A stretch of 43,159 bases of DNA from a virus. Below are positions 3,917 to 24,360 of the stretch, one piece after another (the first letter of the stretch is position 1; the number at the start of each line of letters is the position of its first letter). The position numbers were made by a program, and so were the translations under genes. The stretch lies in IMG/VR virus record IMGVR_UViG_3300034104_000606; one strand, written 5' to 3'. The notes below the pieces were generated by a model. That model saw only the letters and a list, made by a program, of their open reading frames with translations, was not told the origin of the DNA and did no database searches.

Positions 3917-3923
3917 ACGTCTC

Positions 3924-5798: not shown

Positions 5799-6069
5799 GT
5801 TTACCTTGTACATCGATGGGTGGTTGAGCGAGGAAGGTTTCCATATCTTTGTCGATGACAAGGAAGAGATCATTACCTTTTTCAAGATGGCTAATGATTT
5901 CATTGAGAGTCAGTGTGTACCAAGTATCCCACCAACGATCAGACAAGATGGTAGGGAAGCTATTGCCAAGCTGGCCTACGAACTAGAAGCAACTGCGGCA
6001 TACCTGAGAAAGCAAGCTGATGCAATCCGAGACTGGGAAATTGAAGATCGTATGGGACATCGAGACTGA
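5782..6069 (+). CDS. Hypothetical protein (95 aa)
   Basis: ATG lies 7 nt after AGGAGG. The track ORF begins at an upstream TTG. Start is uncertain among 5779, 5782 and 5788. Confidence 0.6.
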   Translation: MEMTTKFTLYIDGWLSEEGFHIFVDDKEEIITFFKMANDFIESQCVPSIPPTIRQDGREAIAKLAYELEATAAYLRKQADAIRDWEIEDRMGHRD

Positions 6070-7738: not shown

Positions 7739-7761
7739 CAATCTACTACGACATGATAATA
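7734..7761 (+). promoter_or_regulatory. Sigma70-type promoter candidate, TTGACA-N16-TAATAT with TG extension
   Basis: TTGACA at 7734..7739, a 16-nt spacer ending in TGA, and TAATAT at 7756..7761. It overlaps the polymerase stop and precedes the SSB gene. Confidence 0.55.
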
Positions 7762-7791
7762 TATGATTACGATCAACTGAGGAAAGACACA

Positions 7792-8340
7792 ATGGCTACT
7801 GCATCGAAGACTGTTACTGGTGAGTTCCGCACCAAGGTTTACTTCGCCCATGTTCAAGAACCCTCGCAGTTCGGGAACTATGAAGTTAACCTTGCGGTAA
7901 CTCCTGAGATTGAGAAGAAGCTTATCGAACTTCGCCTTGATAAGAAGATCAAGGATGGTAAGGAACGGATCAATGACGGTGGTAAGTATCTTACCCTGCG
8001 TAATCCTGTCGTTGACCTGAAGGGCTTTGAGTCTGAGATGGTTATCATTGATGAGAATGGTAAGCGTACAAAGGCTCTAATCGGTAACGGCTCTGAGTGC
8101 ATTGTTTACTGGCGTTCGTATGATACGCCGAAGTATGGCAAGGTCATCAAGCTTGGCAAGATGATTGACTGGGACGAAGAGAATAAGAAGAAGAAGTTTG
8201 GTACTCTGAAGGTTGTCGAGCTTGTCTCTTACGAGAAGCCTACTGATGAGTTCGCTGCTGCAATTGAAAGCGATCCGTTCCCTCCGTCTGAGAACCTTGA
8301 GGTTAAGCCCCGGTCAGTGGAGTTTGAAATCGAAGCATGA
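7792..8340 (+). CDS. Single-stranded DNA-binding protein, T7 gp2.5-like (DUF2815-type)
   Basis: Start MATASKTVTGEF has a GAGGAAAG SD. IGNGSECIVYW core and acidic C-terminal tail ...SVEFEIEA. Sits after the polymerase. Confidence 0.7.
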   Translation: MATASKTVTGEFRTKVYFAHVQEPSQFGNYEVNLAVTPEIEKKLIELRLDKKIKDGKERINDGGKYLTLRNPVVDLKGFESEMVIIDENGKRTKALIGNGSECIVYWRSYDTPKYGKVIKLGKMIDWDEENKKKKFGTLKVVELVSYEKPTDEFAAAIESDPFPPSENLEVKPRSVEFEIEA

Positions 8341-8603
8341 TCAACTACTACATCCCTGATGAAGTAGAGGTTAAAGATAAGGGGGATTCTGTGGAGTCCC
8401 CCTCCCATTACAACAATGGGACAATCGAGTGTATCGAATACCTCAAAGATAATATGCCCTTCGATAACTACGTTGGTTATCTTGAGGGTAACATGAAGAA
8501 GTATCTCCATCGTTGGAGGTACAAGAAGAAGCCTCTGGAAGATCTTAAGAAAGCACAGTGGTACCTGAACAGACTTTTAAAGGAACTAGAAGATGGACTT
8601 TGA
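8337..8603 (+). CDS. DUF3310-like phage protein (88 aa)
   Basis: SPSHYNNGTIECIEYL motif. ATGA overlap with the SSB stop. Confidence 0.7.
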   Translation: MINYYIPDEVEVKDKGDSVESPSHYNNGTIECIEYLKDNMPFDNYVGYLEGNMKKYLHRWRYKKKPLEDLKKAQWYLNRLLKELEDGL

Positions 8604-8943
8604 TGAGTATCAAGAAAAGGCTTTGACTACCCTGCTGGTTGATACACCAGAGCATCTTACCTATGGCCTTGCCGCTGAGATTGGTGAGGTAATGTCACTG
8701 ATGCAAAAGTATGAGCGTCAGGACAGCAGGTACTGGTCAGACCAGACTGATATGTTTTTCGGGAACTATACCCCGTTGTTTAAGGAGAAGCTCTTTGCTG
8801 AACTGGGAGATGTCCTCTGGTATCTCTCTTGTCTTTGCCAGCATCATGGTTTTCCTCTCTCCTCTGTTGCCCAACACAATCTAGAAAAGCTGGGCATCCG
8901 GGTTAAGAACGGTACTCTTCGTGGGAATGGAGACAATCGCTAA
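8593..8943 (+). CDS. mazG: MazG-like nucleoside triphosphate pyrophosphohydrolase
   Basis: FDEYQEKAL, GLAAEIGEV, ELGDVLWYL and NLEKL motifs typical of the MazG fold. Confidence 0.8.
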   Translation: MDFDEYQEKALTTLLVDTPEHLTYGLAAEIGEVMSLMQKYERQDSRYWSDQTDMFFGNYTPLFKEKLFAELGDVLWYLSCLCQHHGFPLSSVAQHNLEKLGIRVKNGTLRGNGDNR

Positions 8944-9773
8944 TGGCTTCTATCAATACCCTTGTTCAGGATATCTATACTCTCCTTGAAGAGGGTACCA
9001 AGGAAGACATCCACGAAGCTTGCATTGCTTTCGGTAACAGGCTCTCTGCTCTTGTAGAGGATAGGCTGAAGCCAAAGGAAGAAAAGCGTACACTCAGGAT
9101 GTCTAACATTGGTAAGCCTGACAGGATGCTCTGGTATGAGACTAGATCTGATGTACCGAAGGGAGAGTTCAATGGGCCTACCTATCTTAAGTTCCTTTAC
9201 GGAGATCTTATCGAAGAGATTGTACTCTTTCTTGCTGAACTGTCTGGACACAGTGTCAAGGATAGACAGCGTGAAGTGGCTGTTTCTGGAATTGTCGGTC
9301 ATATTGATGCTGTTATCGATGATGTCCTTATTGATGTGAAGAGTACTAATCCCCATTCCTTTAAGAAGTTCAAGGATGGTACCCTTCGTGAGGATGATCC
9401 CTTCGCTTACCTTCCTCAGTTGTCTGGCTACCTCGACGGTACTGGTATTGACAACGGTGCCTTCGTCGCTGTCGATAAACAGAACGGTAACATCACTGTT
9501 ATGACACTAGAAGATGGAGACAGGGTGGATGTTAAAGACAGGATCAGGCATGTTAAAGAAGTTGTCTCTTCTGAAGATATCCCTCCTCGCTGCTTCTCTC
9601 CTGAACCTATGGGTAAGACCGGAAACCTTAAGCTTCCTACTGGTTGTTCTTATTGTCCTTTTAATCTTGAGTGTTGGAAGGATGTTGGACTAAGGAAATT
9701 TATTTACTCGACTGGCCCTGTCTATCTAACTCATGTCGAGAAAGAACCGAATGTCCCTGAGGTTGAACTGTGA
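8943..9773 (+). CDS. PD-(D/E)XK (Cas4/RecB-like) exonuclease with C-terminal 4-Cys cluster
   Basis: GHIDAVIDDVLIDVKS is a D...D/ExK motif. C-terminal cysteines in RCFSP...GCSYCPFNLECW. Confidence 0.8.
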   Translation: MASINTLVQDIYTLLEEGTKEDIHEACIAFGNRLSALVEDRLKPKEEKRTLRMSNIGKPDRMLWYETRSDVPKGEFNGPTYLKFLYGDLIEEIVLFLAELSGHSVKDRQREVAVSGIVGHIDAVIDDVLIDVKSTNPHSFKKFKDGTLREDDPFAYLPQLSGYLDGTGIDNGAFVAVDKQNGNITVMTLEDGDRVDVKDRIRHVKEVVSSEDIPPRCFSPEPMGKTGNLKLPTGCSYCPFNLECWKDVGLRKFIYSTGPVYLTHVEKEPNVPEVEL

Positions 9774-10171
9774 CTTACAAGTATGGTCATTGGGTATCAA
9801 GGGTAAAGATAAACCCAGAAGAATACTTTGGGTTTGTCTACCAGATAACTAATCTGATCACACAAAGAAAGTACATTGGTAAGAAACAGTTCCATTCGTA
9901 TCGTAAGAAGAAGAAAGCAAAGGAGTCAGACTGGCTTACCTACACCTCCTCCTCTAAAGAACTGAACCAAGACATCAAAAACTTTAAGAAGAATAACTTT
10001 AAGTTTGAGATACTTCAGGTTTATAAGACAAGAGGTGGACTGGTATACGGTGAGGCAAACATACAACACAAGCTTGATGTCCTTACTGCCTGTGATCTTC
10101 ATGGAGACAGAGAGTTTTATAACGGACAGATAGGGGCAATCAAGTTTATACCTAAAGAGTTCTACCCTTAG
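9770..10171 (+). CDS. GIY-YIG family endonuclease, catalytic-domain-only (133 aa)
   Basis: GTG start overlaps the upstream TGA. FGFVYQITNLITQRKYIGKK matches the GIY-(10-11)-YIG pattern. AT-rich local composition. Confidence 0.7.
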   Translation: MTYKYGHWVSRVKINPEEYFGFVYQITNLITQRKYIGKKQFHSYRKKKKAKESDWLTYTSSSKELNQDIKNFKKNNFKFEILQVYKTRGGLVYGEANIQHKLDVLTACDLHGDREFYNGQIGAIKFIPKEFYP

Positions 10172-10508
10172 CTCTTTCATAGGTGACAATAGCATGGCAG
10201 TTAGCACAACGTACAACACACTTTCTAATTTCATTTTTGATTTTAGAAATAGACAAACCCCTACCTATCATGGAGGCAATATCCTTTTCTTTTAAACCTA
10301 CCACATGGTCAAATTGCAAAGCAATAGGGTTAGCTGAGTAGCCACAATCGACACAACCGCACATCTTTTTATATCTTCTTGTAAAAGCATGTGCTTTTTC
10401 TCTAGCAATCTTTCTATTTGCTTTTGCTTTTTGTTTGTAGTACTCTTTATTTGCTTGGTAATGCTTCTTGATGTACTCTTTTTGGTATTCAGGGTTATTA
10501 CTAGGCAT
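10152..10508 (-). CDS. HNH homing endonuclease (118 aa)
   Basis: CGCVDCGY...LQFDHV...CANCH motif. AGGAG SD 8 nt upstream. The only minus-strand gene inside the rightward arm. Confidence 0.85.
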   Translation of the reverse strand: MPSNNPEYQKEYIKKHYQANKEYYKQKAKANRKIAREKAHAFTRRYKKMCGCVDCGYSANPIALQFDHVVGLKEKDIASMIGRGLSISKIKNEIRKCVVRCANCHAIVTYERAKGRTL

Positions 10509-10528
10509 TGTTTAACTCCTATGTTAAA

Positions 10529-10606
10529 GGTTCCGTAGCTTAACTGGATAAAGCATCCGTCTTCTAAACGGAAGATCTGTAGGTTCAAGTCCTACCGGGA
10601 CCGCCA
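10529..10606 (+). tRNA. tRNA-Arg (anticodon UCU) with encoded CCA
   Basis: Hand-folded cloverleaf: acceptor GGTTCCG/CGGGACC, D stem GCTT/AAGC, anticodon stem TCCGT/ACGGA, loop CTTCTAA, T arm GTAGG-TTCAAGT-CCTAC, discriminator G, then CCA. The variable region is 6 nt, which is slightly atypical. Confidence 0.85.
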
Positions 10607-10613
10607 TAGGATT

Positions 10614-10642
10614 ATTATACCACACTAGGACTCTAATGTAAA
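10614..10642 (-). promoter_or_regulatory. Extended -10 promoter for the HNH gene, TTTACA-N17-(TGG)TATAAT
   Basis: Minus strand reads TTTACAttagagtcctagtgtggTATAAT. It lies between the two tRNAs and faces tRNA-Arg and the HNH gene. Confidence 0.55.
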
Positions 10643-10661
10643 GAAAGGTTTAGAAGTTAAA

Positions 10662-10736
10662 GCTCCTAAAGCATTGGCGGTGATGCACCGGATTTGTAAC
10701 CCGGATAATTCAGTTCGACTCTGGATAGGAGCACCA
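10662..10736 (+). tRNA. tRNA-Thr (anticodon UGU) with encoded CCA
   Basis: Hand-folded cloverleaf: acceptor GCTCCTA/TAGGAGC, D stem GCAT/ATGC, anticodon stem CCGGA/CCCGG (one A-C mismatch), loop TTTGTAA, T arm TTCAG-TTCGACT-CTGGA, discriminator A, then CCA. 75 nt. Confidence 0.85.
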
Positions 10737-10751
10737 TTCACAGGAGCATAT

Positions 10752-11072
10752 ATGAAGTATCTTCTTATAGTGCTTGCGGTAACAGTGTTTAGTACAAGTG
10801 TTAAAGCTGAAATAGCATCATGGTATGGACCGGGGTTTCATGGTAAGAGGACAGCGAGTGGAGAGATCTTTAATCGTTATGGGTATACTGCTGCTCACCG
10901 GAGTCTTCCTTTCGGGTCTAGGGTTAGGGTATGTAATAGGAGTAAATGCGTCATCGTCAGGATCAATGACCGTGGTCCCTTCATCAAAGGGAGATCTATT
11001 GATCTGTCCGAAGCAGCAGCCCGTAAGATCGGGTGCAAAGGTTTATGTCGTGTAACACTAAGGAGATTGTAA
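10752..11072 (+). CDS. Secreted RlpA-like double-psi beta-barrel (DPBB) protein
   Basis: Start [19 protein letters not shown] is a signal peptide, with an [24 protein letters not shown]...[14 protein letters not shown]...VRINDRGPF is the RlpA DPBB signature. The track's upstream extension overlaps tRNA-Thr. Confidence 0.85.
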
Positions 11073-11278
11073 TGACAGCAGACTACCAGAACGACTACAG
11101 AAATATGTATGAAGAACTCCGTGCAGTTGTCCGTCTGTACTTTGAGATCAAGCACGACGATGGTACAGTCTACGATGACTGGGACTGGGAGAAGGCACTA
11201 GAAGAAGTTGAAATTGATCTGATGCTTATGGTCGGTCTTATTGAGGAAGATGATGAAGACGCATTTGGTGATACCTGA
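11072..11278 (+). CDS. Highly acidic small protein (68 aa, 22 Asp/Glu)
   Basis: TAATG coupling with the RlpA-like gene and an AGGAG SD. Ends ...IEEDDEDAFGDT. Confidence 0.65.
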   Translation: MTADYQNDYRNMYEELRAVVRLYFEIKHDDGTVYDDWDWEKALEEVEIDLMLMVGLIEEDDEDAFGDT

Positions 11279-12002
11279 TCCGCATGCTGCACCTGATGAG
11301 GATCTGTCAAGGTTCAGTTACCTTGGTAAGCTCATCACTTCAGTGAAGCCTGATACTGTTATCTGTATCGGTGACTGGGCAGATATGCCTAGCCTCTGTT
11401 CATATGATAAGGGTACGAAGGGCTTTGAAGGTAGACGGTACAGGAAAGATATCGAAGCTTCATGCATGGCACAGGAACTTATGTTCAAGCCTATCAAGGA
11501 AGCGAAGAAGAAGATGCCCCGGTTCATTATGGTAACAGGAAACCATGACTATGCTCGTATTGAAAAGGCTATCCAGAAAGATGCAGTCCTTGACGGAACT
11601 ATCTCCGTACAGGATCTTCAATATGAAGAGTTTGGTTGGGAGACTTACCCTTTTCTGGAACCTGCTGAAGTGGATGGTGTATATTACGCGCACTATTTCC
11701 CAACGGGGGTCATGGGTAGAGCTACAAGTGGTGAACATCAGGCGTACACCCTCCTCACAAAGCAGTTCGTATCCTGTACGCAAGGTCACACTCACACTAG
11801 AGATTTCGCAGAGAGGACTGGACCTGACGGAAGACGGCTTATGGGACTTGTAACTGGCTGTTACATTGACAGGACTCATGAGTATGCTGGTCAGGCAAAT
11901 AAGATGTGGTGGCCGGGTGTTGTCATTAAGCGTGGAGTAAACAACGGACAGTATGACCATGAGTGGATCAGTCTGGATAGGATCAAAGATGAGTTTAAGT
12001 AG
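11250..12002 (+). CDS. Calcineurin-like metallophosphoesterase
   Basis: DPH, GDWAD, GNHD and GHTH motifs in canonical order. Start is ATG 11250 or 11253. Confidence 0.8.
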   Translation: MMKTHLVIPDPHAAPDEDLSRFSYLGKLITSVKPDTVICIGDWADMPSLCSYDKGTKGFEGRRYRKDIEASCMAQELMFKPIKEAKKKMPRFIMVTGNHDYARIEKAIQKDAVLDGTISVQDLQYEEFGWETYPFLEPAEVDGVYYAHYFPTGVMGRATSGEHQAYTLLTKQFVSCTQGHTHTRDFAERTGPDGRRLMGLVTGCYIDRTHEYAGQANKMWWPGVVIKRGVNNGQYDHEWISLDRIKDEFK

Positions 12003-12013
12003 ACGAGGTTACG

Positions 12014-12196
12014 ATGTCGTTCGATCTTAAGCAGCTTATCCTTGATAGGTTCTCTGTCCTTGAACTGGTAGAAATCCTTGACCTAGACCCAGAAGAGTTC
12101 TATGATAGAATGGAAGACATTATTCTGGACAAGCTAGACAAGATAAAAGAGATTGACAATGGGCTGGAGAAAGAAAAATTTTCAGAAGAAGATTAA
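12014..12196 (+). CDS. Highly acidic small protein (60 aa, 20 Asp/Glu)
   Basis: GAGG SD. Product MSFDLKQLILDRFSVLELVEILDLDPEEFYDRMEDIILDKLDK... Confidence 0.7.
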   Translation: MSFDLKQLILDRFSVLELVEILDLDPEEFYDRMEDIILDKLDKIKEIDNGLEKEKFSEED

Positions 12197-12332
12197 GAAC
12201 CGTAGCCCGTATGCAAAGGAACTTGAGGAAGGGCAGTACCGACAAAGAATAAAAGAGTCTGAGAAAACATATAAACGTACAAAGCTGAATGTAAGGAACA
12301 CCTATGAATACGATGAAGAATCTTCCAACTGA
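12159..12332 (+). CDS. Possible ArfA-like (alternative ribosome-rescue factor-like) small basic protein (57 aa)
   Basis: Below the track cutoff. Product MGWRKKNFQKKIKNRSPYAKELEEGQYRQRIKESEKTYKRTKLNVRNTYEYDEESSN. The YRQRI...KTYKRTK segment resembles E. coli ArfA [20 protein letters not shown]. It fills the 107-nt gap before the RNR gene but overlaps both neighbours, and its SD is weak. Confidence 0.35.
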   Translation: MGWRKKNFQKKIKNRSPYAKELEEGQYRQRIKESEKTYKRTKLNVRNTYEYDEESSN

Positions 12333-14232
12333 CTACCAGACTTTTATTGCCACCTCCCGGTACGCACGTTGGATTGAAGATGATAACCGCCGTGAGTCTT
12401 GGGAAGAGACTGTTGATAGGTTCATGGAGAATGTTGTCTATCCTAAAATGCCTGAGACTGAGGAGGCAGTAGCGACTAATACTGCTATCCGTGAGGCTAT
12501 CCTGAACCTTGAGATCATGCCCAGTATGCGGGCCATGATGACTGCTGGCAAGGCTCTGGAGCGTGATAATACTTGTGCCTATAACTGTTCCTACCTCCCT
12601 GTCGATGACATGAAGTCGTTCGATGAGGCTATGTTTATCCTGATGTGTGGTACTGGTGTTGGGTTCAGTGTTGAGCGTCAGTACATCAGCAAGCTTCCTG
12701 AAGTACCGGAGAAGCTCTTCGATTCTCAGACGATGATCGTTGTCTCTGACAGCAAGGAAGGCTGGGCCAAGGCTCTTCGTCAGCTTATCTCTTTGTTGTA
12801 CTCAGGTGAAGTACCGAAGTGGGATATGAGCAAGATCCGCCCTGCTGGTTCTAGGCTGAAGGTCTTTGGTGGCCGTGCTTCTGGTCCTGAACCTCTTGAC
12901 CAGTTGTTCCGCTTTGTTGTCTCCATCTTCCGTAATGCTTCTGGTCGTAAGCTTAGTTCCCTTGAGTGCCATGACATTATGTGCAAGATTGGTGAGGTTG
13001 TCGTAGTCGGCGGTGTTCGTCGCTCTGCCATGATCTCTCTGTCTAACCTGTCTGATGACCGTATGCGCCATGCCAAGACAGGCCAGTTCTGGGAGACAAA
13101 CCCCCAGCGTTCACTGGCTAACAACTCTGTTGCCTATACAGAAAAGCCTGATGCCAGCACCTTCCTCCATGAATGGGCCTCGTTGGTTGACTCTGGTACT
13201 GGTGAGCGTGGTATGTTCTCTCGCGTTGCAGCACAAAAGCATACGGCTAAGAACGGTAGGCGTGATCCTAATCATGAGTTTGGTACGAACCCTTGCTCTG
13301 AGATCATCCTTCGTCCGTACCAGTTCTGTAACCTGACTGAGGTTGTTGTTCGTGCAACAGATAGCATTGAAGATCTGAAGCGTAAGGTAGAACTTGCTAC
13401 GATCCTTGGTACTGTCCAAGCAACGTACACTCACTTCCCCTACCTCCGTAAGATCTGGGCTAAGAACACAGAAGAAGAGCGCCTCCTTGGTGTCAGCCTT
13501 ACTGGTATCATGGATCATGATGTCCTTAATGGTAGGAATCCTTTTGGTCAGCTTCCTGCTGCACTAACTGCCCTGAAGGAAGCAGCGATTAATACAAACA
13601 AGATCTGGGCTGAGAAGCTCGGTATTCCTGTCTCTGCTGCTATTACCTGTGTCAAGCCTTCTGGTACAGTGTCTCAGCTTGTTAACTCTGCTTCTGGTAT
13701 TCACCCCCGGCACAATGACTACTACATCCGCCGTGTCCGTGGTGATAACAAAGACCCGATTACCCAGTTCATGAAGGACATGGGTATTCCTAACGAGCCT
13801 GATATTATGAAGCCTGAGAATACTACGGTGTTCAGCTTCCCTGTAAAAGCTCCTGTCGATGCTGTTACTCGCCATGATCTGGATGCAGAGGAACACCTTG
13901 ACCTGTGGAAGATCTATGCTGAGTTCTGGTGTGAGCATAAGCCTTCGATTACTGTCTCAGTCAAGCCTGATGAGTGGGTATCGGTAGGCTCTTGGTTGTA
14001 CGAGAACTTCAACATCGCCTCTGGTCTTAGCTTCCTTCCTCACTCTGATCATATCTATAAGCAAGCACCGTATGAGGACTGCACTGTTGAAGAGTACGAA
14101 GCCCTCCTTGCTCAGATGCCAGAGACTATTGACTGGTCTAGGTTGTCTGAGTACGAGAAGGAAGATACGACTAAGGCATCTCAGTCCTTGGCCTGTACCG
14201 CTGGTGTTTGTGAAATTGTGGATATTACCTAA
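12304..14232 (+). CDS. nrdJ: Class II (adenosylcobalamin-dependent) ribonucleotide reductase
   Basis: Catalytic NPCSEIILRPYQFCNLTEV motif and C-terminal redox pair CTAGVCEI. 642 aa, consistent with phage class II enzymes. Confidence 0.9.
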   Translation: MNTMKNLPTDYQTFIATSRYARWIEDDNRRESWEETVDRFMENVVYPKMPETEEAVATNTAIREAILNLEIMPSMRAMMTAGKALERDNTCAYNCSYLPVDDMKSFDEAMFILMCGTGVGFSVERQYISKLPEVPEKLFDSQTMIVVSDSKEGWAKALRQLISLLYSGEVPKWDMSKIRPAGSRLKVFGGRASGPEPLDQLFRFVVSIFRNASGRKLSSLECHDIMCKIGEVVVVGGVRRSAMISLSNLSDDRMRHAKTGQFWETNPQRSLANNSVAYTEKPDASTFLHEWASLVDSGTGERGMFSRVAAQKHTAKNGRRDPNHEFGTNPCSEIILRPYQFCNLTEVVVRATDSIEDLKRKVELATILGTVQATYTHFPYLRKIWAKNTEEERLLGVSLTGIMDHDVLNGRNPFGQLPAALTALKEAAINTNKIWAEKLGIPVSAAITCVKPSGTVSQLVNSASGIHPRHNDYYIRRVRGDNKDPITQFMKDMGIPNEPDIMKPENTTVFSFPVKAPVDAVTRHDLDAEEHLDLWKIYAEFWCEHKPSITVSVKPDEWVSVGSWLYENFNIASGLSFLPHSDHIYKQAPYEDCTVEEYEALLAQMPETIDWSRLSEYEKEDTTKASQSLACTAGVCEIVDIT

Positions 14233-14483
14233 TGGATAATGAAGATAAGAAGGTACTGAAGCTGGTACAGAAGAGCAAAGAAAAACCCCCAGAGGAAACT
14301 CCGGGGGTTACTCCTGACGATCTACTGAAGGAAGGGATCGGTAACTATGAAAGTCTGATCCTTGTAGGCTGGTCCGGTGATCACTTTAAAGTGTCATGGA
14401 ACCTTGGTCTTACTCCAGATGAGGTTTATGTTTTGCTTGACCTTGCTAAGTCAAGGCTTCTGGCGAACATGTATGAGTTTTAG
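14232..14483 (+). CDS. Hypothetical protein (83 aa), last gene of the rightward arm
   Basis: TAATG coupling with the RNR stop. Its stop codon overlaps the stop of the convergent gene. Confidence 0.7.
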   Translation: MDNEDKKVLKLVQKSKEKPPEETPGVTPDDLLKEGIGNYESLILVGWSGDHFKVSWNLGLTPDEVYVLLDLAKSRLLANMYEF

Positions 14484-15211
14484 AGTGATCTACCAGAAGA
14501 AGAGATAGCAAATCTCTCTGCCTGTCTTCTTCTCATTCTCTCCAGATTAGTTCTACGCTTCGGCTTTGCCTTAGCAGCAGCATTCTTCTTAGCCATTCCC
14601 ATCTGGTTAACACCAGCAGCCTTCCTCTGGGGCATATAAGCACCCGGAGTCTCAGGTCTACCAGCAACTGTCGTACCAGCCCTCATAGAGGGAGCTTGAG
14701 AACCCTGTCTGGATCTGGGTCCACCACCCTTCGGTGACGGCTGGGTAGCCTTATTAAAAGCCATACCAGAAACTCTACCCTTCATCCGTCTCTGCTCAGT
14801 ATTACGTCTTTCCCAAGCTCTTTCTGCTGCACTACCAGCAGGTCTTGACTCTGTAACCATACCTACAACAGCACTACCTGCACCAAGAAGACCTCTAAGA
14901 CCAACCCTAGCAGTTGTCTTTGCAGTCTCCTTCGCAACAGTCAAAGCTTTACCTGTGCTAGGAGCCTCTACTCTGGCAGGAAGACCAGCCTTTACCGTGG
15001 CTACAGACCTGCCTGTACCTCCAGTACCTCCCATACGGATGGATTCCTGAGGTCTAGCAAGGTTAGGGTTGCCACGAACCTTCTGAACTCTGGCAGGAAC
15101 ACCGCCTCTTGTACCCTTATACGGGCGGTTCTTAGCCTCACCCATTCTCTCAAGAAGAGTACCCTTTGCAGTTCCCATTTTCTTTCTAATTGGTTTTCTA
15201 GGAGCAGCCAT
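14480..15211 (-). CDS. Highly basic, Gly/Ala/Arg/Lys/Pro-rich low-complexity protein (243 aa)
   Basis: Last gene of the leftward arm. MAAPRKPIRKKMGTAKG...AKKNAAAKAKPKRRTNLERMRRRQAERF. Start lies 1 nt after the upstream stop (TAAAATG). Confidence 0.75.
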   Translation of the reverse strand: MAAPRKPIRKKMGTAKGTLLERMGEAKNRPYKGTRGGVPARVQKVRGNPNLARPQESIRMGGTGGTGRSVATVKAGLPARVEAPSTGKALTVAKETAKTTARVGLRGLLGAGSAVVGMVTESRPAGSAAERAWERRNTEQRRMKGRVSGMAFNKATQPSPKGGGPRSRQGSQAPSMRAGTTVAGRPETPGAYMPQRKAAGVNQMGMAKKNAAAKAKPKRRTNLERMRRRQAERFAISSSGRSL

Positions 15212-15212
15212 T

Positions 15213-15407
15213 TTACTTACCTTTCTTCTTCATCTTGCCAAGGGTCATTGCAAGTCTTGCCCTCTGGCCCAGCTTACCCGGCTTCTTAGCAGCCTTCTCA
15301 AGGGCCTTCTTAGGGATCTTCTCACCCTCTTTAACACCCATCTGTTCTCTTAAGGCTCCCGGCTTTTTAATAGCCTTCTTGATCCACTTCTTATCCTTGG
15401 CCATCAC
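15213..15407 (-). CDS. Lys-rich small protein (64 aa; 20 Lys + 3 Arg)
   Basis: ATGA overlap with the upstream gene. Product MMAKDKKWIKKAIKKPGALREQMGVKEGEKIPKKALEKAAKKPGKLGQRARLAMTLGKMKKKGK. Confidence 0.7.
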   Translation of the reverse strand: MMAKDKKWIKKAIKKPGALREQMGVKEGEKIPKKALEKAAKKPGKLGQRARLAMTLGKMKKKGK

Positions 15408-15667
15408 TTCATCTTCTTCTTCATAGGCTTCTTCTTAACAGCCATCTTGTTGCCCTTGGCTACTGTGTTAGACACCTGCGGCTTTCTCTTGGGCTTAGGG
15501 ACTGTCTCGTTATAGGCACTGAGAGGAACACCTCTGCCAGCCGAAGGATCAATACCTTCAGCGTAGGGATCTCTCTTCATCTTCTTCATAGGCTTCTTAT
15601 AAATCTGACCTTTACCCGGCATAATAGAACTCCTTCTTAAATCACCAGTGTTAGATGTTTTCATCAT
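15404..15667 (-). CDS. Lys-rich small protein (87 aa) with repeated KKPMKK(K)MK motif
   Basis: ATGA overlap with the upstream 46-aa ORF. KKPMKKMK near the N-terminus and KKKPMKKKMK at the C-terminus. Confidence 0.7.
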   Translation of the reverse strand: MMKTSNTGDLRRSSIMPGKGQIYKKPMKKMKRDPYAEGIDPSAGRGVPLSAYNETVPKPKRKPQVSNTVAKGNKMAVKKKPMKKKMK

Positions 15668-15804
15668 TTCTTTTTCTTCCTTGCTGTCTTAGCAGCTTCC
15701 CTAAAGGCTTTATCAGTAGGTGCGCCTTTCTCACCCTTCTTCCTCATCTTCTTACCAGCCTTACGCTTGGCCCAGATGTTGGCGTACAGACCCTGCTTTG
15801 CCAT
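15664..15804 (-). CDS. Lys/Arg-rich mini-protein (46 aa; 14 Lys + 4 Arg)
   Basis: Below the track cutoff. Product MAKQGLYANIWAKRKAGKKMRKKGEKGAPTDKAFREAAKTARKKKK. TAATG overlap upstream and ATGA overlap downstream. The GL(Y/W)ANI.AKR motif seems familiar from other phage small ORFs (from memory). Confidence 0.55.
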   Translation of the reverse strand: MAKQGLYANIWAKRKAGKKMRKKGEKGAPTDKAFREAAKTARKKKK

Positions 15805-16076
15805 TACCATTTCACCTTATCGGCCCAGTAGGCAGCAGACATCTTACCTTTAGAAATGTTCTTAGCATGTCTAGCCTTAAACGATTCCCTTCTCTTACGG
15901 TAGGACTCAGACTCTCCTGCCTTCTTAGGGGAACCAGATACACCCTGCTGACCAAACCTGATCAGCTTAATCTTGCTACCTTCTTTGGCAAGGACAGCAT
16001 GAGACTTACTTGCATTAGGGGTTTTCTTGGGCTTGTTATACCCAGAGAACTTCTCACCTCTATATTCAACAGCCAT
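15804..16076 (-). CDS. Basic small protein (90 aa)
   Basis: Product MAVEYRGEKFSGYNKPKKTP...IRFGQQG...SYRKRRESFKARHAKNI...AAYWADKVKW. Starts immediately after the stop of the peptidoglycan hydrolase gene. Confidence 0.75.
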   Translation of the reverse strand: MAVEYRGEKFSGYNKPKKTPNASKSHAVLAKEGSKIKLIRFGQQGVSGSPKKAGESESYRKRRESFKARHAKNISKGKMSAAYWADKVKW

Positions 16077-17141
16077 TTAATAACTCCATGATAGGGACAT
16101 ACCGGGCAGGAGTTTATCCTGTGTCCAGATGTCAAAGTGGATACCATCACCCTTCATATAAGATCCGACTGAACCATAGTTATTATCCAGCCAAAACTTA
16201 CGAAGAGTATCAAGCTTGGTTCTATCTGTAACTTGCTTACCCTCAGGATCAAAGATCTTAACATCAGCAGCCATGCCTCTGCCTTCAGAGTCTACATTAT
16301 GCCTGATAGATCCTGTCCTTCTTTCACCTTCCTGCCCACCAGAAAAGATATCGACTGTATATCCCTGACCAAGGACAGAGCTAACAGCAACATCAAGCTT
16401 GTTTTCTAGTTCGGTGGATACTGGCTTATTTCTAATAGCACCGACATTGGAATATCTTATAGTAGAGAAACCAACAGGCTTGATCACAGTCTTTGTCCTA
16501 GCTTCAACACCTCTACTGAGTCTACCTTCAAAGTCCTTGTCAATGACGATACCTCTCCATGTATTCTGGAGGGCAGACCGAAGGTAAGAAGTGTTACCTG
16601 CAAGGAGATCAGCCTCTAGATCTCTACCCTTTGTACCAATCTTGTATCTTTCTCTGGCAAGGTAGATTGCAGCCTTGTCTTGATTAGCCGGAGAGAAGTC
16701 TGTAAGATCAGAGTACTTGCTCTGGAGATAATCCCATGTCTGCTTCGTAATCTGGTACTTACCAGCAGCAGTGCTTGGTCCTTCTTTTGTGACTAGACCA
16801 ATAACATCAGGGTGCTGGGCATAGTCATCAAATCTGCCACCACCAACGATGATGTTGTAGTCACCACCTGTACCCTCTGCACTGGCAATAGAGTCAAGGA
16901 AACTCTGGGCAGGGATAGACAGACCTGAGTCAGCCATAGCAGGAGTAGGTACAGGTTCCGATACTGGCTCCTTTGTATCAGGGGAGATCTCTACTTCAGG
17001 CTGTTGAGGTTGAACAGACTCAAGCAAAGTTCTAATAGAAGACCCCAGACTAACAATGCTTTCAGGATCTATTGCGACAGTCCTTTGGGTAGGTGTTACA
17101 TTAGTCTGAAGATCAGAAATCTCTGGTTTAAGAAGAGCCAT
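16077..17141 (-). CDS. Virion-associated bifunctional peptidoglycan hydrolase: lambda-R-like lytic transglycosylase (GH104-type) plus M15-like peptidase
   Basis: FLDSIASAEGT...IIVGGGRFDDYAQHP...STAAGKYQITKQTWDY...DFSPANQD aligns by eye with lambda R. The C-terminal half has GSIRHNVDSEGRGMAADV and GDGIHFD (H..D...H zinc-peptidase pattern). Confidence 0.85.
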   Translation of the reverse strand: MALLKPEISDLQTNVTPTQRTVAIDPESIVSLGSSIRTLLESVQPQQPEVEISPDTKEPVSEPVPTPAMADSGLSIPAQSFLDSIASAEGTGGDYNIIVGGGRFDDYAQHPDVIGLVTKEGPSTAAGKYQITKQTWDYLQSKYSDLTDFSPANQDKAAIYLARERYKIGTKGRDLEADLLAGNTSYLRSALQNTWRGIVIDKDFEGRLSRGVEARTKTVIKPVGFSTIRYSNVGAIRNKPVSTELENKLDVAVSSVLGQGYTVDIFSGGQEGERRTGSIRHNVDSEGRGMAADVKIFDPEGKQVTDRTKLDTLRKFWLDNNYGSVGSYMKGDGIHFDIWTQDKLLPGMSLSWSY

Positions 17142-19021
17142 TACTGGATACCCTGTCTGATAAGTTCAAGTGTATCAACGCCATTGGACCTGACATCAAC
17201 AGGAATCTTCTTCGACTGCATAGCCAGAATTTTAAGTGACTCTACAATGTCAAGGATTTCCTTCTGGTTAGATCCAGTACCAAGGGTAACGTAGTTAGCA
17301 AGGATCTTAACCGGGTCTGTCTCAGTAGCAGTCTGTTCAATAGCCATCCTCTGGGTACCTCGCCCAGCAGACTTTGTTTCATAGCGATACATACCCATCG
17401 CTCTCTTAAGTCTGGGGTCTGTCCTAGCAGCAACCTGATTAACATTCAAAGATACGTTACCGTTTGCATCCATACTAAGCTTGAAAGGAACTTCTTCAGT
17501 ATCCTTGATGATATCCATATTGGTATTGAAGTTATTAAGAAGGATATTAGCAGCATTAGCCGCATAATTGTTCATCTTATTATAAAGATCCTTACCCTTC
17601 AATGGGGTTGTCTTAGACATGCTATCAGCAATCGACAGCATCTTTTCACTCATCAGTGTTCTGACATTCTGAGGACGCATAGACTCAAAGGCTTTGTCAA
17701 TCTCAGGGAGAGACACAATATACATCGTAGACAACGCACGATGAGCGGCCTCAACCATCTCAGGAGATTCATTCTCAAACTTGTAACCGTTAGAGATATC
17801 CGTAGCAATCTTAATAGAGCTTCTCCATGCAGGAGGAGAACTAAAGATCTTGGTAAGTTCTGCCGCAGGAGCCAGACCCTTATACTGTTCAGCAAAAGCA
17901 GACGGAGAATCGCCAACAGTGTTATTAGAGATAACAGACATTGGTGTCTGAGCCGACATATCACCAGCAGCAATTGAGGTGCTTGTCTGAATAGCATTAA
18001 CAAGATCAGACTTAGCCTTTACATCCGCCTCAAGGGTATAAGCTGTAACCGCAGCATCACCAGAGATAATACCTCTTGCAATAATCGGGTTATCAATCTT
18101 GCTGGCAAGCTGTGCAATCTGCTCTGCATTCTTGTTCTTGAAAGATCTAGAGAAGATATCAAGGTTAGCTTTGAACGCCTCAATCTGAGCATCATACTCA
18201 GCAAGGAATGTTTCAGGATTCTCTGACTTAGGATCAAGACCATACTTATTAATATCAGTTGTAACCTCTGCAAGTCTTACGGCTCTTGCCTGTGAAAGAC
18301 TATCAAGAAGTACAACAGCAGGATCAAGACCTTGCTTAAGAGCCTGATCAGCAATAGTCCTTACCATTTCAGGTGAAGTATCCATCTTAAACTTATTAGA
18401 GATATCTGTCTGGATAATAGGTCTAGATCTAAGAGAGAACTCAGTCTTTCTTGTAGCTGCATCAGCAGAAATTCTATCTGAAGCAAGCTTTGCCTGATCA
18501 ATCTGCAACTGCTTTTGTGTGCTTATCATGTACTGCTGTGTCAGGATATTCTGTGCCTCAGCTTCGTCACCACCAGAAGTGATATAGGCATAGCTCAAGG
18601 CAGCTTTGCCTTCGGTAGTATCTGTAACCCACTTAGCAGTGTTAGCCTGTTGCAGATCCTGAACAGCCTGTCCAGTCCCCATATATACATCCCCGGTAAA
18701 AGACCCGAAGAGTTTATTTACTTCTTCCTGATAAGAGGGAAATTGAAGAAGAGCCTTCTGTTGTGTCTTTTTAAATTCAATTGCTTTTCTTGTAGGATCT
18801 TCAATTGCATTAACTCTTTCAATAGAAGCGGCAATAATGTTCAAGGCTTCCTGCTTCTTCTCAGCTTCAGTCGGACCCTTAACTTCCTTTTGCTCCATAG
18901 CACCTGCGAACATTGCAGTAATGCCAGTAATTGCACCAGAGTAGTCCATGCTTGGAGGAGTATACGCTGTAAGATTAGTGCCACCAACTTCTCTAATCTC
19001 GGGCTTAAACAATTCAGCCAT
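17141..19021 (-). CDS. Internal virion / ejection protein (626 aa)
   Basis: Sits between the large internal protein and the hydrolase. Ala/Gln-rich and helical-looking. TAATG coupling downstream. Confidence 0.6.
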   Translation of the reverse strand: MAELFKPEIREVGGTNLTAYTPPSMDYSGAITGITAMFAGAMEQKEVKGPTEAEKKQEALNIIAASIERVNAIEDPTRKAIEFKKTQQKALLQFPSYQEEVNKLFGSFTGDVYMGTGQAVQDLQQANTAKWVTDTTEGKAALSYAYITSGGDEAEAQNILTQQYMISTQKQLQIDQAKLASDRISADAATRKTEFSLRSRPIIQTDISNKFKMDTSPEMVRTIADQALKQGLDPAVVLLDSLSQARAVRLAEVTTDINKYGLDPKSENPETFLAEYDAQIEAFKANLDIFSRSFKNKNAEQIAQLASKIDNPIIARGIISGDAAVTAYTLEADVKAKSDLVNAIQTSTSIAAGDMSAQTPMSVISNNTVGDSPSAFAEQYKGLAPAAELTKIFSSPPAWRSSIKIATDISNGYKFENESPEMVEAAHRALSTMYIVSLPEIDKAFESMRPQNVRTLMSEKMLSIADSMSKTTPLKGKDLYNKMNNYAANAANILLNNFNTNMDIIKDTEEVPFKLSMDANGNVSLNVNQVAARTDPRLKRAMGMYRYETKSAGRGTQRMAIEQTATETDPVKILANYVTLGTGSNQKEILDIVESLKILAMQSKKIPVDVRSNGVDTLELIRQGIQ

Positions 19022-23874: not shown

Positions 23875-24360
23875 TTATATTTCCTTCTGATAGATTACTT
23901 CTTTTACTGAATAACCAAGTTTCTGGTAAAGTTTACCCAGACTCTTTGGACTTAAATTTGTATACGTTGCTATGTGAAGAGACTCTGCTTTCTTGTACCT
24001 AGCCCAAGCTTCAAAGGCTCTTACCATCTCCAGACCATACTTCCTGCTGTCTTTGCTTACAAAGATTGCCATACAGTAGGCCATCTTAGACGAATGGAAG
24101 TAGTGTTCTGTCAGGATACCAAGGATAAAACCTTTAACTCTACCTGCTACTACCAGCACAATCCCTGTAATATCTTCATTTAGCAGGGCAGCATCACAGA
24201 GTTTCAGGATCTTTTCTTCCTCATATTCTTTATCAGGAAGGACACTCTGTACTGGTTCTTTGGCAAGGTTTAATATCTCAGGGTAGTCTTCTTTAATCAG
24301 GTATCTGATACTAACCTTAGTAACTCTTCCTACGTCAGTATCTTGGGTTTGTTGCACCAA
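23875..24360 (-). CDS. GNAT-family N-acetyltransferase (about 160 aa) with non-ATG start
   Basis: GIVLVVAGRVKGFILG...FVSKDSRKYGLEMVRAFEAWAR...KLYQKLGY is a GNAT core. There is no in-frame ATG before residue 93, so the start must be TTG 24360 or GTG 24357, overlapping the upstream gene by 23-26 nt. Confidence 0.8.
   Translation of the reverse strand: MVQQTQDTDVGRVTKVSIRYLIKEDYPEILNLAKEPVQSVLPDKEYEEEKILKLCDAALLNEDITGIVLVVAGRVKGFILGILTEHYFHSSKMAYCMAIFVSKDSRKYGLEMVRAFEAWARYKKAESLHIATYTNLSPKSLGKLYQKLGYSVKEVIYQKEI

What the first reader, a model, noticed from the sequence alone, without database searches (positions are those of the whole stretch)
14480..16076. Five-gene, translationally coupled operon of polycationic proteins at the distal end of the late arm (top candidate for a new system)
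Directly after the virion hydrolase gene come five consecutive leftward ORFs of 90, 46, 87, 64 and 243 aa. They are linked by TAATG (15804), ATGA (15664..15667 and 15404..15407) and TAAAATG (15209..15215).

All five are extremely basic:
- The 64-aa product has 20 Lys + 3 Arg.
- The 46-aa product, missing from the ORF track, has 14 Lys + 4 Arg and ends RKKKK.
- The 87-aa product repeats KKPMKKMK / KKKPMKKKMK.
- The 243-aa product is Gly/Ala/Arg/Lys/Pro-rich and low in complexity, so probably disordered.

Nothing comparable exists in the canonical T7 gene order. Their co-transcription with the internal/ejection proteins suggests they are packaged polycations that condense or neutralise the genome. 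They might alternatively be co-ejected nucleic-acid binders, by functional analogy to protamines or adenovirus protein VII.

A GNAT acetyltransferase lies in the same operon (23875..24360). This raises the speculative idea of a Lys-rich substrate plus acetyltransferase pair.
Basis: partly seen in the sequence, partly recalled or inferred. Interest (0 to 1): 0.7.

Follow-up and report, generated by a model that had tools for sequence, protein, structure and literature searches.

The report
Polycationic small-protein cassette in marine podophage
Five real, back-to-back genes at the end of this marine phage's virion operon encode its five most positively charged proteins; three belong to large uncharacterised families that sit in, or are fused to, phage head and ejection proteins, so they are probably DNA-associated proteins carried inside the capsid, though no experiment shows this yet.

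Summary
Five consecutive leftward ORFs (90, 46, 87, 63/64 and 243 aa; 14480-16076) carry net charges of +16, +15, +19, +18 and +41. They are the five most basic proteins of a roughly 49-gene SIO1-like (Zobellviridae) podophage genome.

All five are real genes.
- p90, p46 and p64 belong to very large metagenomic families under strong purifying selection (dN/dS 0.03-0.22).
- p87 and p243 are fast-evolving, low-complexity and lineage-specific, but the ORFs are retained.

- In unrelated phages these families, with DUF5872 and DUF6321, form variable clusters of tiny basic genes between portal or scaffold and capsid genes, or after giant polyvalent proteins.
- The p90 domain is fused to the ICP1 XkdF-type prohead protease, to a tail lysozyme, to ART-PolyVal proteins and to the p46 module.
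- This fits capsid-internal, DNA-bound, co-ejected proteins, functionally like T4 internal proteins.
- There is no homology to any known family, no PDB fold match and no virion proteomics.

The GNAT idea is not supported: that gene is the standard T7 gp13-type gene of the internal-virion-protein operon.

Verdict: a new variant of a known kind, of moderate to high interest.

The parts
15804..16076 (-). p90: a 90-aa folded basic domain protein (net +16). It belongs to phrog_7595, the most conserved member of the cassette.
   Evidence: - phrog_7595, E 8e-38.
- More than 8000 metagenomic homologues and 1124 clusters at 50% identity.
- Invariant residues: H26, I39, R40, F41, G42, G45, S80.
- AF2 model with pLDDT 85: two beta-hairpins plus three helices. 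No PDB fold match.
- dN/dS 0.03-0.05, and 91-94% amino-acid identity where the neighbouring IVP is 27-44% identical.
15664..15804 (-). p46: a 46-aa basic protein (net +15) of phrog_16028, with the GLYANIxAKRK...GAPTDxxF motif.
   Evidence: - phrog_16028, E 2.6e-14.
- 1407 homologues.
- Invariant residues: Y7, A8, N9, I10, G17, M20, R21, G24, G27, A28, P29, D31, F34, T40.
- dN/dS 0.11-0.22.
- Fused with p90 in the 1053-aa protein P0304.
15404..15667 (-). p87: a low-complexity Lys/Pro/Met-rich protein (net +19). A 72-aa form is possible from the internal ATG at 15622, which follows AAGGAG.
   Evidence: - Sequence read directly.
- Shorter, variable homologues of 37-68 aa in relatives L007-L009 and L032-L036.
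- 46-51% identity, dN/dS 0.2-0.3.
- The leader stays in frame in all relatives examined.
15213..15407 (-). p64: a 63/64-aa basic helical protein (net +18), with weak matches to phrog_20603/15706 and the KKPGALR...KIP...KKPGKLGQRARLA motif.
   Evidence: - phrog_20603, E 2.5e-5.
- 2592 homologues.
- 18 invariant positions.
- dN/dS 0.05 against L032.
- AF2 model of four helices, pLDDT 69. No PDB match.
14480..15211 (-). p243: an Arg/Lys/Gly/Ala/Pro-rich, probably disordered protein (net +41, pI 12). It has a short Gly/Ala-rich hydrophobic centre (VGLRGLLGAGSAVVGMV).
   Evidence: - Composition.
- Positional homologues of 240-344 aa sharing the MAAPR N-terminus in L007-L009 and L032-L036.
- 32-38% identity, dN/dS 0.4-0.67 with saturated dS.
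- No family hit.
- Analogous large basic low-complexity proteins in HMO-2011 (gp68, net +61) and in L041 (259 aa, net +40).
16077..17141 (-). Upstream context: a 354-aa virion-type muralytic protein. p90 starts right after its stop codon.
   Evidence: - phrog_90 endolysin domain over residues 67-166, E 1.7e-21.
- The same lysozyme-then-p90 adjacency occurs in L009 and L032-L036.
- p90 is fused to Phage_lysozyme2 in P0290.
14284..14309 (-). Terminator-like hairpin for the leftward late operon, about 170 nt past the p243 stop and inside the convergent 83-aa ORF.
   Evidence: - 11-bp stem with 7 G-C pairs, followed by a T-run. It is the only such site in 14000-17300, and is a consensus match only.
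- Cobaviruses are described as having a bidirectional terminator between the two arms (PMC6775973).

Best explanation
**What it is.** The five genes form a variable cassette of late-expressed polycationic proteins. They most likely end up inside the capsid, associated with the packaged DNA and the ejection proteins, and leave with the DNA at infection.

**How it most likely works (inferred).**
- The genes are translated from the 3' end of the virion operon, right after the internal virion proteins and the virion muralytic protein. Short or overlapping junctions and Shine-Dalgarno-like sequences link them.
- The products are incorporated into the capsid interior, where they shield part of the DNA phosphate charge.
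- p90, p46 and p64 are small modules with sharply conserved residues. They bind a generic ligand, most plausibly nucleic acid.
- p87 and p243 are disordered counter-ions whose composition, not sequence, is under selection.
- On ejection the proteins would enter the cell with the DNA and could coat or protect it.

**Shown here:** gene reality, extreme charge, conservation, genomic association with head and ejection modules, and domain fusions to encapsidated proteins.

**Inferred:** presence in the virion, DNA binding, and ejection.
For: **In the window**
- These are the five most basic proteins of the genome, and they are contiguous.
- They occupy the end of the late arm, after IVP-type genes: phrog_12003 'internal virion protein' on the 1455-aa gene, then the lysozyme-like 354-aa gene.
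- They are far from the lysis cassette at 34944-36426.

**Purifying selection**
- p90, p46 and p64 are much more conserved than the flanking structural genes.

**Recurrent head-module context in unrelated phages**
- KBS-S-2A: MuF-like minor head protein, then tiny basic ORFs, then p90, then scaffold and coat.
- L028-L031: portal, DUF6321, p46, further genes including two more basic ORFs, then acidic scaffold and major capsid protein (MCP).
- L037-L040: portal, acidic scaffold, p90, DUF5872 N-terminal half, p64, DUF5872 C-terminal half, a 42-aa basic ORF, then MCP.
- L019-L027: a giant LPD38 polyvalent protein, then basic mini-ORFs, p46 and DUF6321.

**Fusions of the p90 domain**
- ICP1 Gp125 combines Peptidase_S78_2 (XkdF prohead protease) with a C-terminal p90 domain (BFVD hit F1D1E8).
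- P0290 carries p90 plus Phage_lysozyme2. P0354 carries ART-PolyVal, LysM and p90.
- P0304 carries the p46 module and p90 in one protein.
- P0251 and P0344 carry DUF5872 plus p90.
- p90 matches phrog_220 'minor head protein and DNA pilot'.

**Clustering statistics over 80 IMG/VR p90 loci**
- 45 of 80 loci have at least one partner family. Partners are on the same strand and mostly within 1 kb.
- Small basic ORFs make up 16% of genes within 1 kb of p90, against 3-6% farther away.

**Generic ligand**
- p90 keeps 60-74% identity across phages with unrelated capsids and tails.
- Its conserved residues are K, R, H, S, N, W, F and G, with no conserved acidic residue. This fits a generic ligand such as nucleic acid.

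**Precedent**
- T4 heads hold about 1370 internal protein subunits mixed with the DNA (PMC7697877).
- Iyer et al. predict that polyvalent proteins and their solo domains are packaged and injected (PMC5512222, sections 6 and 29).
Against: - No virion proteomics or structure exists for any member, and none was found in the literature searches.
- The S-CBS2 record labels gp050 'unknown structural protein' but its p90 homologue gp046 only 'hypothetical'.
- In close relatives L007-L009, a PhoH gene (not a virion protein) sits between p90 and p46 on the same strand. Membership of this stretch therefore does not by itself imply a structural role.
- This phage type has no detected prohead protease, and its scaffold candidate is only weakly acidic (net -4). 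The T4 route of encapsidation cannot be assumed.
- Gene content varies between close relatives, so no single member looks essential.
- No fold or sequence match ties any of the five to a known DNA-binding domain.
Confidence: 0.45

Rival explanations
1. Late-expressed nucleic-acid-binding proteins that act in the infected cell and are not packaged. Possible roles: compacting or protecting replicated phage DNA before packaging, assisting the terminase, binding RNA or ribosomes, or collapsing the host nucleoid.
For: - Extreme basic charge, and conserved K/R/H/S/N residues in p90.
- PhoH, a cytoplasmic ATPase, is embedded in the same gene string in L007-L009.
- In CRP-207 and MW202701 the cluster lies just upstream of the small and large terminase genes.
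- p90's very high cross-lineage conservation fits a universal target.
- There are no proteomic data placing them in virions.
Against: - The repeated fusions to proteins that must be inside the particle are hard to explain for purely cytoplasmic factors: prohead protease, tail lysozyme, ART-PolyVal and giant polyvalent proteins.
- So is the repeated position between portal or scaffold and capsid genes.
Confidence: 0.27
2. Lysis accessory factors: cationic peptides that disrupt the outer membrane at the last step of lysis, like the phiKT gp28 'disruptin' that replaces spanins (recalled from the literature, not checked here).
For: - They are small, very cationic and late-expressed.
- In cobaviruses the distal end of this arm carries the lysis genes, and p90 is the last gene after them (PMC6775973).
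- p90 directly follows a muralytic protein in the window.
Against: - The window has a separate lysis cassette about 19 kb away. It comprises an endolysin at 35546-36211 plus four small ORFs with transmembrane segments at 34944-36426.
- None of the five has an amphipathic or hydrophobic helix typical of membrane-active peptides. Only p243 has a weak Gly/Ala-rich stretch.
- The families occur in head modules far from lysis genes in other phages.
Confidence: 0.06
3. A Lys-rich substrate plus acetyltransferase pair: the operon's GNAT acetylates the polycations to tune their DNA affinity.
For: - A GNAT (Pfam Acetyltransf_1) lies in the same late arm at 23875-24360.
- Lys makes up 20-30% of four of the five products (8% of p243).
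Against: - The GNAT lies 7.8 kb away, in the position of T7 gp13/IVP-A. That gene is an acetyltransferase-family morphogenesis factor common to SIO1-like, epsilon15 and P22 groups (PMC4819975 section 9; PMC6775973).
- p90, p46 and p64 clusters occur in many phages with no GNAT called within 4 kb.
Confidence: 0.03
4. Some of the ORFs, especially the low-complexity p87 and p243, are not functional genes but chance ORFs in a purine-rich stretch.
For: - p87 and p243 have no family hits.
- Their identity to relatives is low and dN/dS relatively high.
- The strand composition is strongly skewed.
Against: - ORFs of 240-344 codons with a shared MAAPR start, matching composition and matching position are kept in all relatives examined.
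- About 0.04 ORFs of this length are expected by chance (my arithmetic).
- Independent public pipelines call all five genes.
- Each has a Shine-Dalgarno-like sequence.
Confidence: 0.02

Closest known systems
Bacteriophage T4 internal proteins IPI, IPII and IPIII
   Same: - Small proteins encoded with head genes.
- Present in the capsid mixed with the DNA, in hundreds of copies, and ejected with it (PMC7697877).
- Dispensable and variable between relatives, as recalled from the T4 literature and not checked here. The cassette in this lineage is also variable.
   Different: - No sequence or profile similarity.
- T4 IPs enter the prohead through an N-terminal capsid-targeting sequence that the gp21 protease removes. 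No protease gene was detected in this window.
- p90, p46 and p64 are far more conserved and more widely distributed than the T4 IPs.
Polyvalent proteins and their solo 'LPD' domains (Iyer et al. 2017, PMC5512222)
   Same: - p90 and p46 occur inside giant multidomain phage proteins and next to an LPD38-containing giant.
- p90 is combined with ART-PolyVal.
- The paper notes that such domains also occur solo beside phage structural genes and predicts that they are injected with the DNA.
   Different: - None of the five matches any Pfam LPD model.
- They are non-enzymatic-looking basic modules rather than effector enzymes.
- Here they occur as separate genes.
DUF5872 and DUF6321 (Pfam families of unknown function)
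   Same: - Small, very basic phage and giant-virus proteins.
- They co-cluster with p90, p46 and p64 on the same strand within about 1 kb, and are fused to p90.
   Different: - The window's five proteins do not match either family.
- Neither DUF has a known function, so the resemblance adds context but no mechanism.
Virion DNA-condensing basic proteins of eukaryotic dsDNA viruses (adenovirus protein VII/mu; basic virion proteins of chloroviruses, PMC3281028)
   Same: - Polycationic proteins packaged with the genome that neutralise its charge.
- Distant structural relatives of p90 occur in giant viruses (Tunisvirus V9SE36, probability 0.98).
   Different: - No homology.
- Tailed-phage capsids are filled by a motor to near-crystalline density, usually without condensing proteins. 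A role of this kind would be unusual for a T7-like particle.
T7 gp13 / IVP-A acetyltransferase-family morphogenesis protein (relevant to the GNAT part of the finding)
   Same: [quoted passage not shown]
   Different: It is not part of the basic cassette, and nothing links the two functionally.

Membership tests
PHROG families 7595 (p90), 16028 (p46) and 20603 (p64) | Significant full-length profile match | tested here: met
   E-values are 8.3e-38, 2.6e-14 and 2.5e-5 respectively, each covering nearly the whole profile. All three families are annotated 'unknown function'.
T4-type internal proteins | Sequence homology to IPI, IPII or IPIII | tested here: not met
   No Pfam, PHROG or NCBIfam match to any internal-protein family.
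T4-type internal proteins | N-terminal capsid-targeting sequence removed by a prohead protease | tested here: inconclusive
   - None of the 20 larger window genes scanned against PHROGs matched a protease family.
- A conserved 15-aa leader, M(M)xTxNTGxLRRxx(I/V)M, precedes p87 and some p64 homologues. Whether it is cleaved is unknown.
T4-type internal proteins | Physical presence in the head and ejection with the DNA | not testable with these tools
   This needs virion mass spectrometry and ejection assays. Only contextual evidence is available.
Polyvalent-protein associated domains (LPD1-40) | Match to a defined LPD family | tested here: not met
   The Pfam scan of all five proteins at E <= 1 returned no LPD family.
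Polyvalent-protein associated domains (LPD1-40) | Occurrence within, or beside, multidomain virion-delivered proteins | tested here: met
   - p90 lies internally in proteins of 1691-2276 aa and is found with ART-PolyVal.
- p46 lies directly downstream of LPD38 giants of 3648-4418 aa.
DUF5872 / DUF6321 | Pfam profile match | tested here: not met
   None of the five matches either family. Neighbouring genes in other phages do match.
Disruptin-type lysis peptides | Location in the lysis cassette, in place of spanins | tested here: not met
   The lysis cassette, an endolysin plus ORFs with transmembrane segments, lies at 34944-36426.
Disruptin-type lysis peptides | Amphipathic membrane-active helix | tested here: inconclusive
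   - A hydropathy scan finds no segment with a score of 1.6 or more in any of the five.
- The p64 model is helical but very polar.
- No dedicated amphipathicity analysis was run.
Known DNA-binding folds | Structural similarity of the p90 or p64 model to a solved DNA-binding domain | tested here: not met
   - Foldseek against the PDB gives no hit with E <= 0.001 for p90. The best is E 0.36, and Sac7d scores E 2.5.
- Foldseek gives no hits at all for p64.
- Profile searches of PDB sequences are empty.
GNAT-substrate pair | Conserved co-occurrence of the GNAT with the basic genes | tested here: not met
   - The GNAT sits at the IVP-A position, as in all SIO1-like phages (PMC4819975; PMC6775973).
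- No acetyltransferase Pfam hit appears among the called genes around p90, p46 or p64 in the other phage types.
- This was not a full statistical test.

The most novel reading that the evidence does not exclude
Many aquatic tailed phages, and distantly some giant viruses, may share an unrecognised, modular set of 'phage protamines': p90, p46, p64, DUF5872, DUF6321 and lineage-specific disordered polycations. These would be loaded into the capsid, neutralise a meaningful share of the genome's charge, and enter the cell bound to the DNA. That would alter packaging energetics, ejection, and the first contact with host defences. p90 would be a new nucleic-acid-binding fold that also tethers cargo such as protease, lysozyme and ART effectors.
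Probability: 0.3. Interest if true: 0.8.

Novelty: new variant of a known kind. Interest (0 to 1): 0.58.

Why it matters
Tailed-phage genomes are generally thought to be packed by motor force with small counter-ions, T4-type internal proteins being a special case. If these families are virion polycations, a large share of marine and freshwater phages would carry protein counter-ions or DNA-coating proteins. The families have thousands of metagenomic members. Relatives occur in SIO1-like roseophages, HMO-2011-type phages, cyanosiphoviruses, ICP1-like vibriophages and uncultured phage contigs carrying giant polyvalent proteins.

That would bear on packaging density and pressure, ejection, protection of incoming DNA from restriction or CRISPR, and virion proteomics. 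Lys/Arg-rich mini-proteins are easily lost in tryptic workflows.

It would also give a function to several abundant 'dark-matter' families. It would explain why the p90 domain is bolted onto a prohead protease and onto ejected enzymes. If they are not packaged, they are still an abundant, strongly conserved set of late nucleic-acid binders of unknown role.

Tried and rejected
**Searches that found nothing**
- Pfam, NCBIfam and PDB sequence searches for all five proteins gave nothing usable.
- Foldseek of the p90 model (pLDDT 85) and the p64 model (pLDDT 69) against the PDB gave no significant match. BFVD returned only homologues.
- tblastn of p46 against the phage collection returned nothing, probably because of the low-complexity filter. 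The metagenomic search worked instead.
- Rfam and tRNA scans found no RNA gene in the region. Tandem repeats there are only weak codon-level AAG/AAGAAG repeats.

**Literature searches for virion proteomics of carriers**
- I searched on Zobellviridae, SIO1, cobaviruses, S-EIV1 and basic internal proteins. No data on these proteins turned up.
- The cobavirus paper has no virion mass spectrometry.

**Ideas considered and rejected**
- Ribosomal-protein mimicry. No family hit supports it. The 'ribosomal L37ae' label in MW202701 belongs to a neighbouring gene, not to p90.
- An enzymatic role for p90, suggested by its two invariant or near-invariant His and Ser residues. It has no conserved acidic residue and is only about 75 aa. 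I could not exclude this.
- Recruitment by an acidic scaffold. Scaffolds in L028 and L037 are strongly acidic (net -21 and -24), but the window's candidate scaffold is only -4.
- The lysis-cassette reading, rejected on location.


Full report
**1. What the window is**

The window is a near-complete genome of an uncultured SIO1-like (Zobellviridae-type) marine podophage. The region around the five genes (about 7 kb compared) is identical to an NCBI metagenomic contig of 43,224 bp (GCA_043532125.1 JBFDPB010001293.1).
- The rightward arm (1-14483) carries replication and nucleotide-metabolism genes: primase-helicase, DNA polymerase, a Cas4-like nuclease and class II RNR.
- The leftward arm carries, in transcription order: tail fibres, a lysis cassette, terminase, portal, scaffold candidate, major capsid protein, tail tube proteins, a GNAT, internal virion proteins, a 354-aa lysozyme-like protein, and then the five ORFs of the finding.
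- The nearest cultured relatives by DNA are roseophages CRP-4 and CRP-5, Celeribacter phage P12053L and Lentibacter phage ICBM2.

**2.

All five ORFs, their lengths, residue counts and motifs check out.
- Net charges are +16 (p90), +15 (p46), +19 (p87), +18 (p64) and +41 (p243), with pI 10.4-12.0.
- The junctions TAATG, ATGA and TAAAATG are as stated. The p87/p64 junction is GTGA or TGATG, not ATGA. Public gene calls use the ATG, giving 63 aa.
- The five are the five most basic proteins in the genome. Their charge density is 0.17-0.33, against a genome mean of 0.006 (sd 0.083) and a maximum of 0.12 among all others.
- Contiguity of the top five among about 49 genes has a chance probability of about 2e-5 (my arithmetic).
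- The strong purine skew of the coding strand at 15-16 kb follows from AAG, AAA and AGA codons.

**3. They are genes, of two kinds**

p90, p46 and p64 are members of very large families.
- p90 has more than 8000 hits, reaching the search's candidate limit, and 1124 clusters at 50% identity. p46 has 1407 hits and p64 has 2592.
- Each has many invariant non-charged positions.
- Against genus-level relatives, dN/dS is 0.03-0.05 for p90, 0.11-0.22 for p46 and 0.05 for p64.
- p90 stays 91-94% identical where the adjacent 626-aa internal protein is only 27-44% identical.
- p90 gives a confident AlphaFold model (pLDDT 85, pTM 0.74) of two beta-hairpins followed by three helices.
- p64 gives a four-helix model of moderate confidence, pLDDT 69.

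p87 and p243 are low-complexity and lineage-specific, and they evolve fast (46-51% and 32-38% identity). Even so, an ORF of the same kind, position and composition is kept in every relative examined: 37-68 aa for p87 and 240-344 aa for p243, the latter with a shared MAAPR start.

**4. The cassette is variable**

Relatives with 89-94% identical p90 show different gene sets.
- L032-L036 add a 63-67-aa basic gene (MPLNAKGKK...) upstream of p90 and a 169-183-aa basic gene downstream of the p243 homologue. Only L032 keeps p64.
- L007-L009 have a PhoH gene inserted between p90 and p46, and they lack p64.
- CRP-4 has p90 (gp31), an acidic 67-aa gene, p46 (gp29) and a 33-aa KKP-rich gene (gp28). P12053L has p90 only.

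This is therefore a flexible pool of basic mini-genes, not a fixed five-component machine.

**5. Where the families occur elsewhere**

This is the main evidence on function.

(a) Head modules of unrelated phages.
- Cyanosiphovirus KBS-S-2A: MuF-like 'minor head protein', two tiny basic ORFs, p90, then scaffold-like and coat genes. P-HS2 is organised similarly.
- L028-L031: portal, DUF6321 (+23), p46, further genes including two more basic ORFs (+17, +18), acidic scaffold (-21), MCP.
- L037-L040: P22-type portal, acidic scaffold (-24), p90, a 59-aa and an 83-aa protein that correspond to the two halves of DUF5872 with p64 between them, a 42-aa basic ORF, MCP.
- L010-L015: p90 sits among six mini-ORFs, five of them strongly basic, downstream of the capsid gene.

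(b) After giant virion proteins. In L019-L027, a 3648-4418-aa LPD38 polyvalent protein is followed by basic ORFs of 38-48 aa, then p46 and DUF6321, at the end of that arm.

(c) Fusions.
- The C-terminal third of ICP1 Gp125 is a p90 domain (PMC9040626). Gp125 is the putative capsid maturation protease, with Peptidase_S78_2/XkdF over residues 36-160.
- BFVD structural hits include other XkdF- and ChaB-labelled fusion proteins.
- p90 is C-terminal in many proteins of 250-1050 aa and internal in giants of 1691-2276 aa.
- It is joined to Phage_lysozyme2 (P0290), to ART-PolyVal plus LysM (P0354), to DUF5872 (P0251, P0344), to DUF5661 (P0301) and to the p46 module (P0304).

(d) Statistics. In 80 IMG/VR loci chosen only for p90:
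- 13 have p46, and 12 of these lie within 1 kb.
- 31 have the DUF5872 N-terminal half and 27 the C-terminal half.
- 3 have p64.
- All partners are on the same strand as p90.
- Small basic ORFs are 16% of genes within 1 kb of p90, against 3-6% farther away.

(e) Large disordered polycations recur too: HMO-2011 gp68 (345 aa, +61) overlapping or following p90, and a 259-aa +40 protein in L041.

**6. Best explanation**

Proteins whose domains are repeatedly attached to a prohead protease, a virion lysin, injected effector domains and giant polyvalent proteins are most simply capsid-internal proteins. Their genes also repeatedly sit between portal or scaffold and capsid genes.
- Their charge, the K/R/H/S/N/W-rich conserved surface of p90 with no conserved acidic residue, and p90's 60-74% identity across phages with unrelated capsids point to a generic ligand. 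That ligand is most plausibly the packaged nucleic acid, not a lineage-specific structural partner.
- I therefore favour DNA-associated, co-ejected internal proteins, functionally like the T4 internal proteins. Those make up about 18 MDa and about 1370 subunits mixed with the DNA (PMC7697877).
- They are also like the solo domains of polyvalent proteins that Iyer et al. predict to be injected (PMC5512222).
- The folded modules (p90, p46, p64) would bind specifically. p87 and p243 would act as disordered counter-ions.
- This is inference. My confidence is about 0.45.

**7. Rivals**

(i) Non-packaged late nucleic-acid binders, about 0.27.
- Supported by PhoH being embedded in the string, by proximity to terminase genes in some phages, and by the lack of proteomic data.

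(ii) Cationic lysis peptides, about 0.06.
- In cobaviruses the distal end of this arm holds the lysis genes (PMC6775973).
- Here, however, the lysis cassette is at 34944-36426, and none of the five has a hydrophobic or amphipathic segment.

(iii) A GNAT-substrate pair, about 0.03.
- The GNAT is the T7 gp13/IVP-A-type gene standard in this phage group (PMC4819975 section 9; PMC6775973).
- It does not travel with the basic families.

(iv) Spurious ORFs, about 0.02. Conservation and gene calls rule this out.

**8. Comparison with the known, and novelty**

- No Pfam, NCBIfam or PDB match exists for any of the five. The matching PHROGs are all 'unknown function'.
- The p90 model has no PDB fold match.
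- Partner families DUF5872 and DUF6321 are also uncharacterised. Only one paper in the library mentions any of these DUFs (DUF5872), in a giant-virus genome paper.
- I found no paper describing this guild.
- It works like a known kind of thing, namely phage internal or ejected proteins and viral DNA-condensing polycations. It is not a member of any defined family. I therefore class it as a new variant of a known kind.
- Interest is moderate to high because of its breadth and the open question of protein counter-ions in tailed-phage heads. It is tempered by the complete lack of direct evidence for packaging.

Noticed in passing
window 15622-15667 (minus strand); also L007, L009, L032-L036 and proteins P0397, P0400, P0410: - The first 15 codons of p87 (MMKTSNTGDLRRSSIM) form a conserved leader that ends at an internal ATG (15622). 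That ATG is preceded by a perfect AAGGAG.
- The leader stays in frame, with synonymous changes, in all relatives.
- The same leader is found on the N-terminus of some p64 homologues.
- It could be a translated targeting or cleaved peptide, loosely like a T4 capsid-targeting sequence, or simply a conserved ribosome-binding region.
   Followed up: partly
window 10529-10606 and 10662-10736 (plus strand): - The phage encodes tRNA-Arg(TCT) and tRNA-Thr(TGT).
- AGA makes up 63% of Arg codons (60 per 1000 codons) in the five basic genes. In 16 other large genes it makes up 41% (20 per 1000).
- The phage tRNA-Arg may therefore help express the polycation genes.
   Followed up: partly
window 14284-14309 (minus strand) and 14480-14483: - The p243 gene and the convergent 83-aa ORF (14232-14483) overlap by 4 nt at their 3' ends.
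- The only terminator-like hairpin for the leftward operon lies about 170 nt further on, inside the coding sequence of the 83-aa ORF.
   Followed up: no
L007-L009 positions 4277-4981 (relatives with 92% identical p90): - A PhoH-family ATPase gene is inserted on the late strand between p90 and p46.
- In CRP-4 and P12053L, PhoH sits at the end of the opposite (replication) arm.
- The junction of the two arms therefore looks like a recombination hot spot.
   Followed up: partly
L004 4452-5288 (Vibrio phage ICP1 Gp125): The putative ICP1 capsid maturation protease is a two-domain protein: an XkdF-type Peptidase_S78_2 domain (residues 36-160) plus a C-terminal p90-like basic domain (about residues 184-261). 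The ICP1 papers I read mention only the protease and not this second domain.
   Followed up: partly
window 34944-36426 (minus strand): A likely lysis cassette lies between the terminase region and the tail-fibre genes. It comprises an endolysin (35546-36211; phrog_181, with a weak sub-threshold Glyco_hydro_19 match) flanked by four small ORFs with transmembrane segments: 34944-35171, 35171-35344, 35355-35549 and 36187-36426.
   Followed up: partly
window 14860-14910 (p243 residues about 104-120) and homologues in L007, L009, L032-L036; also the 169-183-aa genes in L032-L036: - The otherwise polar, basic p243 family keeps a short Gly/Ala-rich hydrophobic stretch, for example VGLRGLLGAGSAVVGMV.
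- The extra 170-183-aa basic protein of relatives has a similar glycine-zipper-like segment (FGAQMAGGMGAMAGFLGMPF).
- This could be a membrane-inserting or self-associating element.
   Followed up: no
window 15720-16091 and 15235-15426 (plus strand): Long antisense ORFs (123 and 63 aa) lie opposite p90/p46 and p64. They are by-products of the purine-rich coding strand and can displace the true small genes in naive longest-ORF gene calling. This happened in my own crude call.
   Followed up: yes
BFVD hits V9SE36 (Tunisvirus) and A0A0N9R3E1 (CeV-01B); DUF5872 in a Chrysochromulina parva virus paper (PMC12085832): Distant structural relatives of p90, and members of the partner family DUF5872, occur in giant viruses of eukaryotes. 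These small basic modules therefore cross the phage/NCLDV boundary.
   Followed up: no
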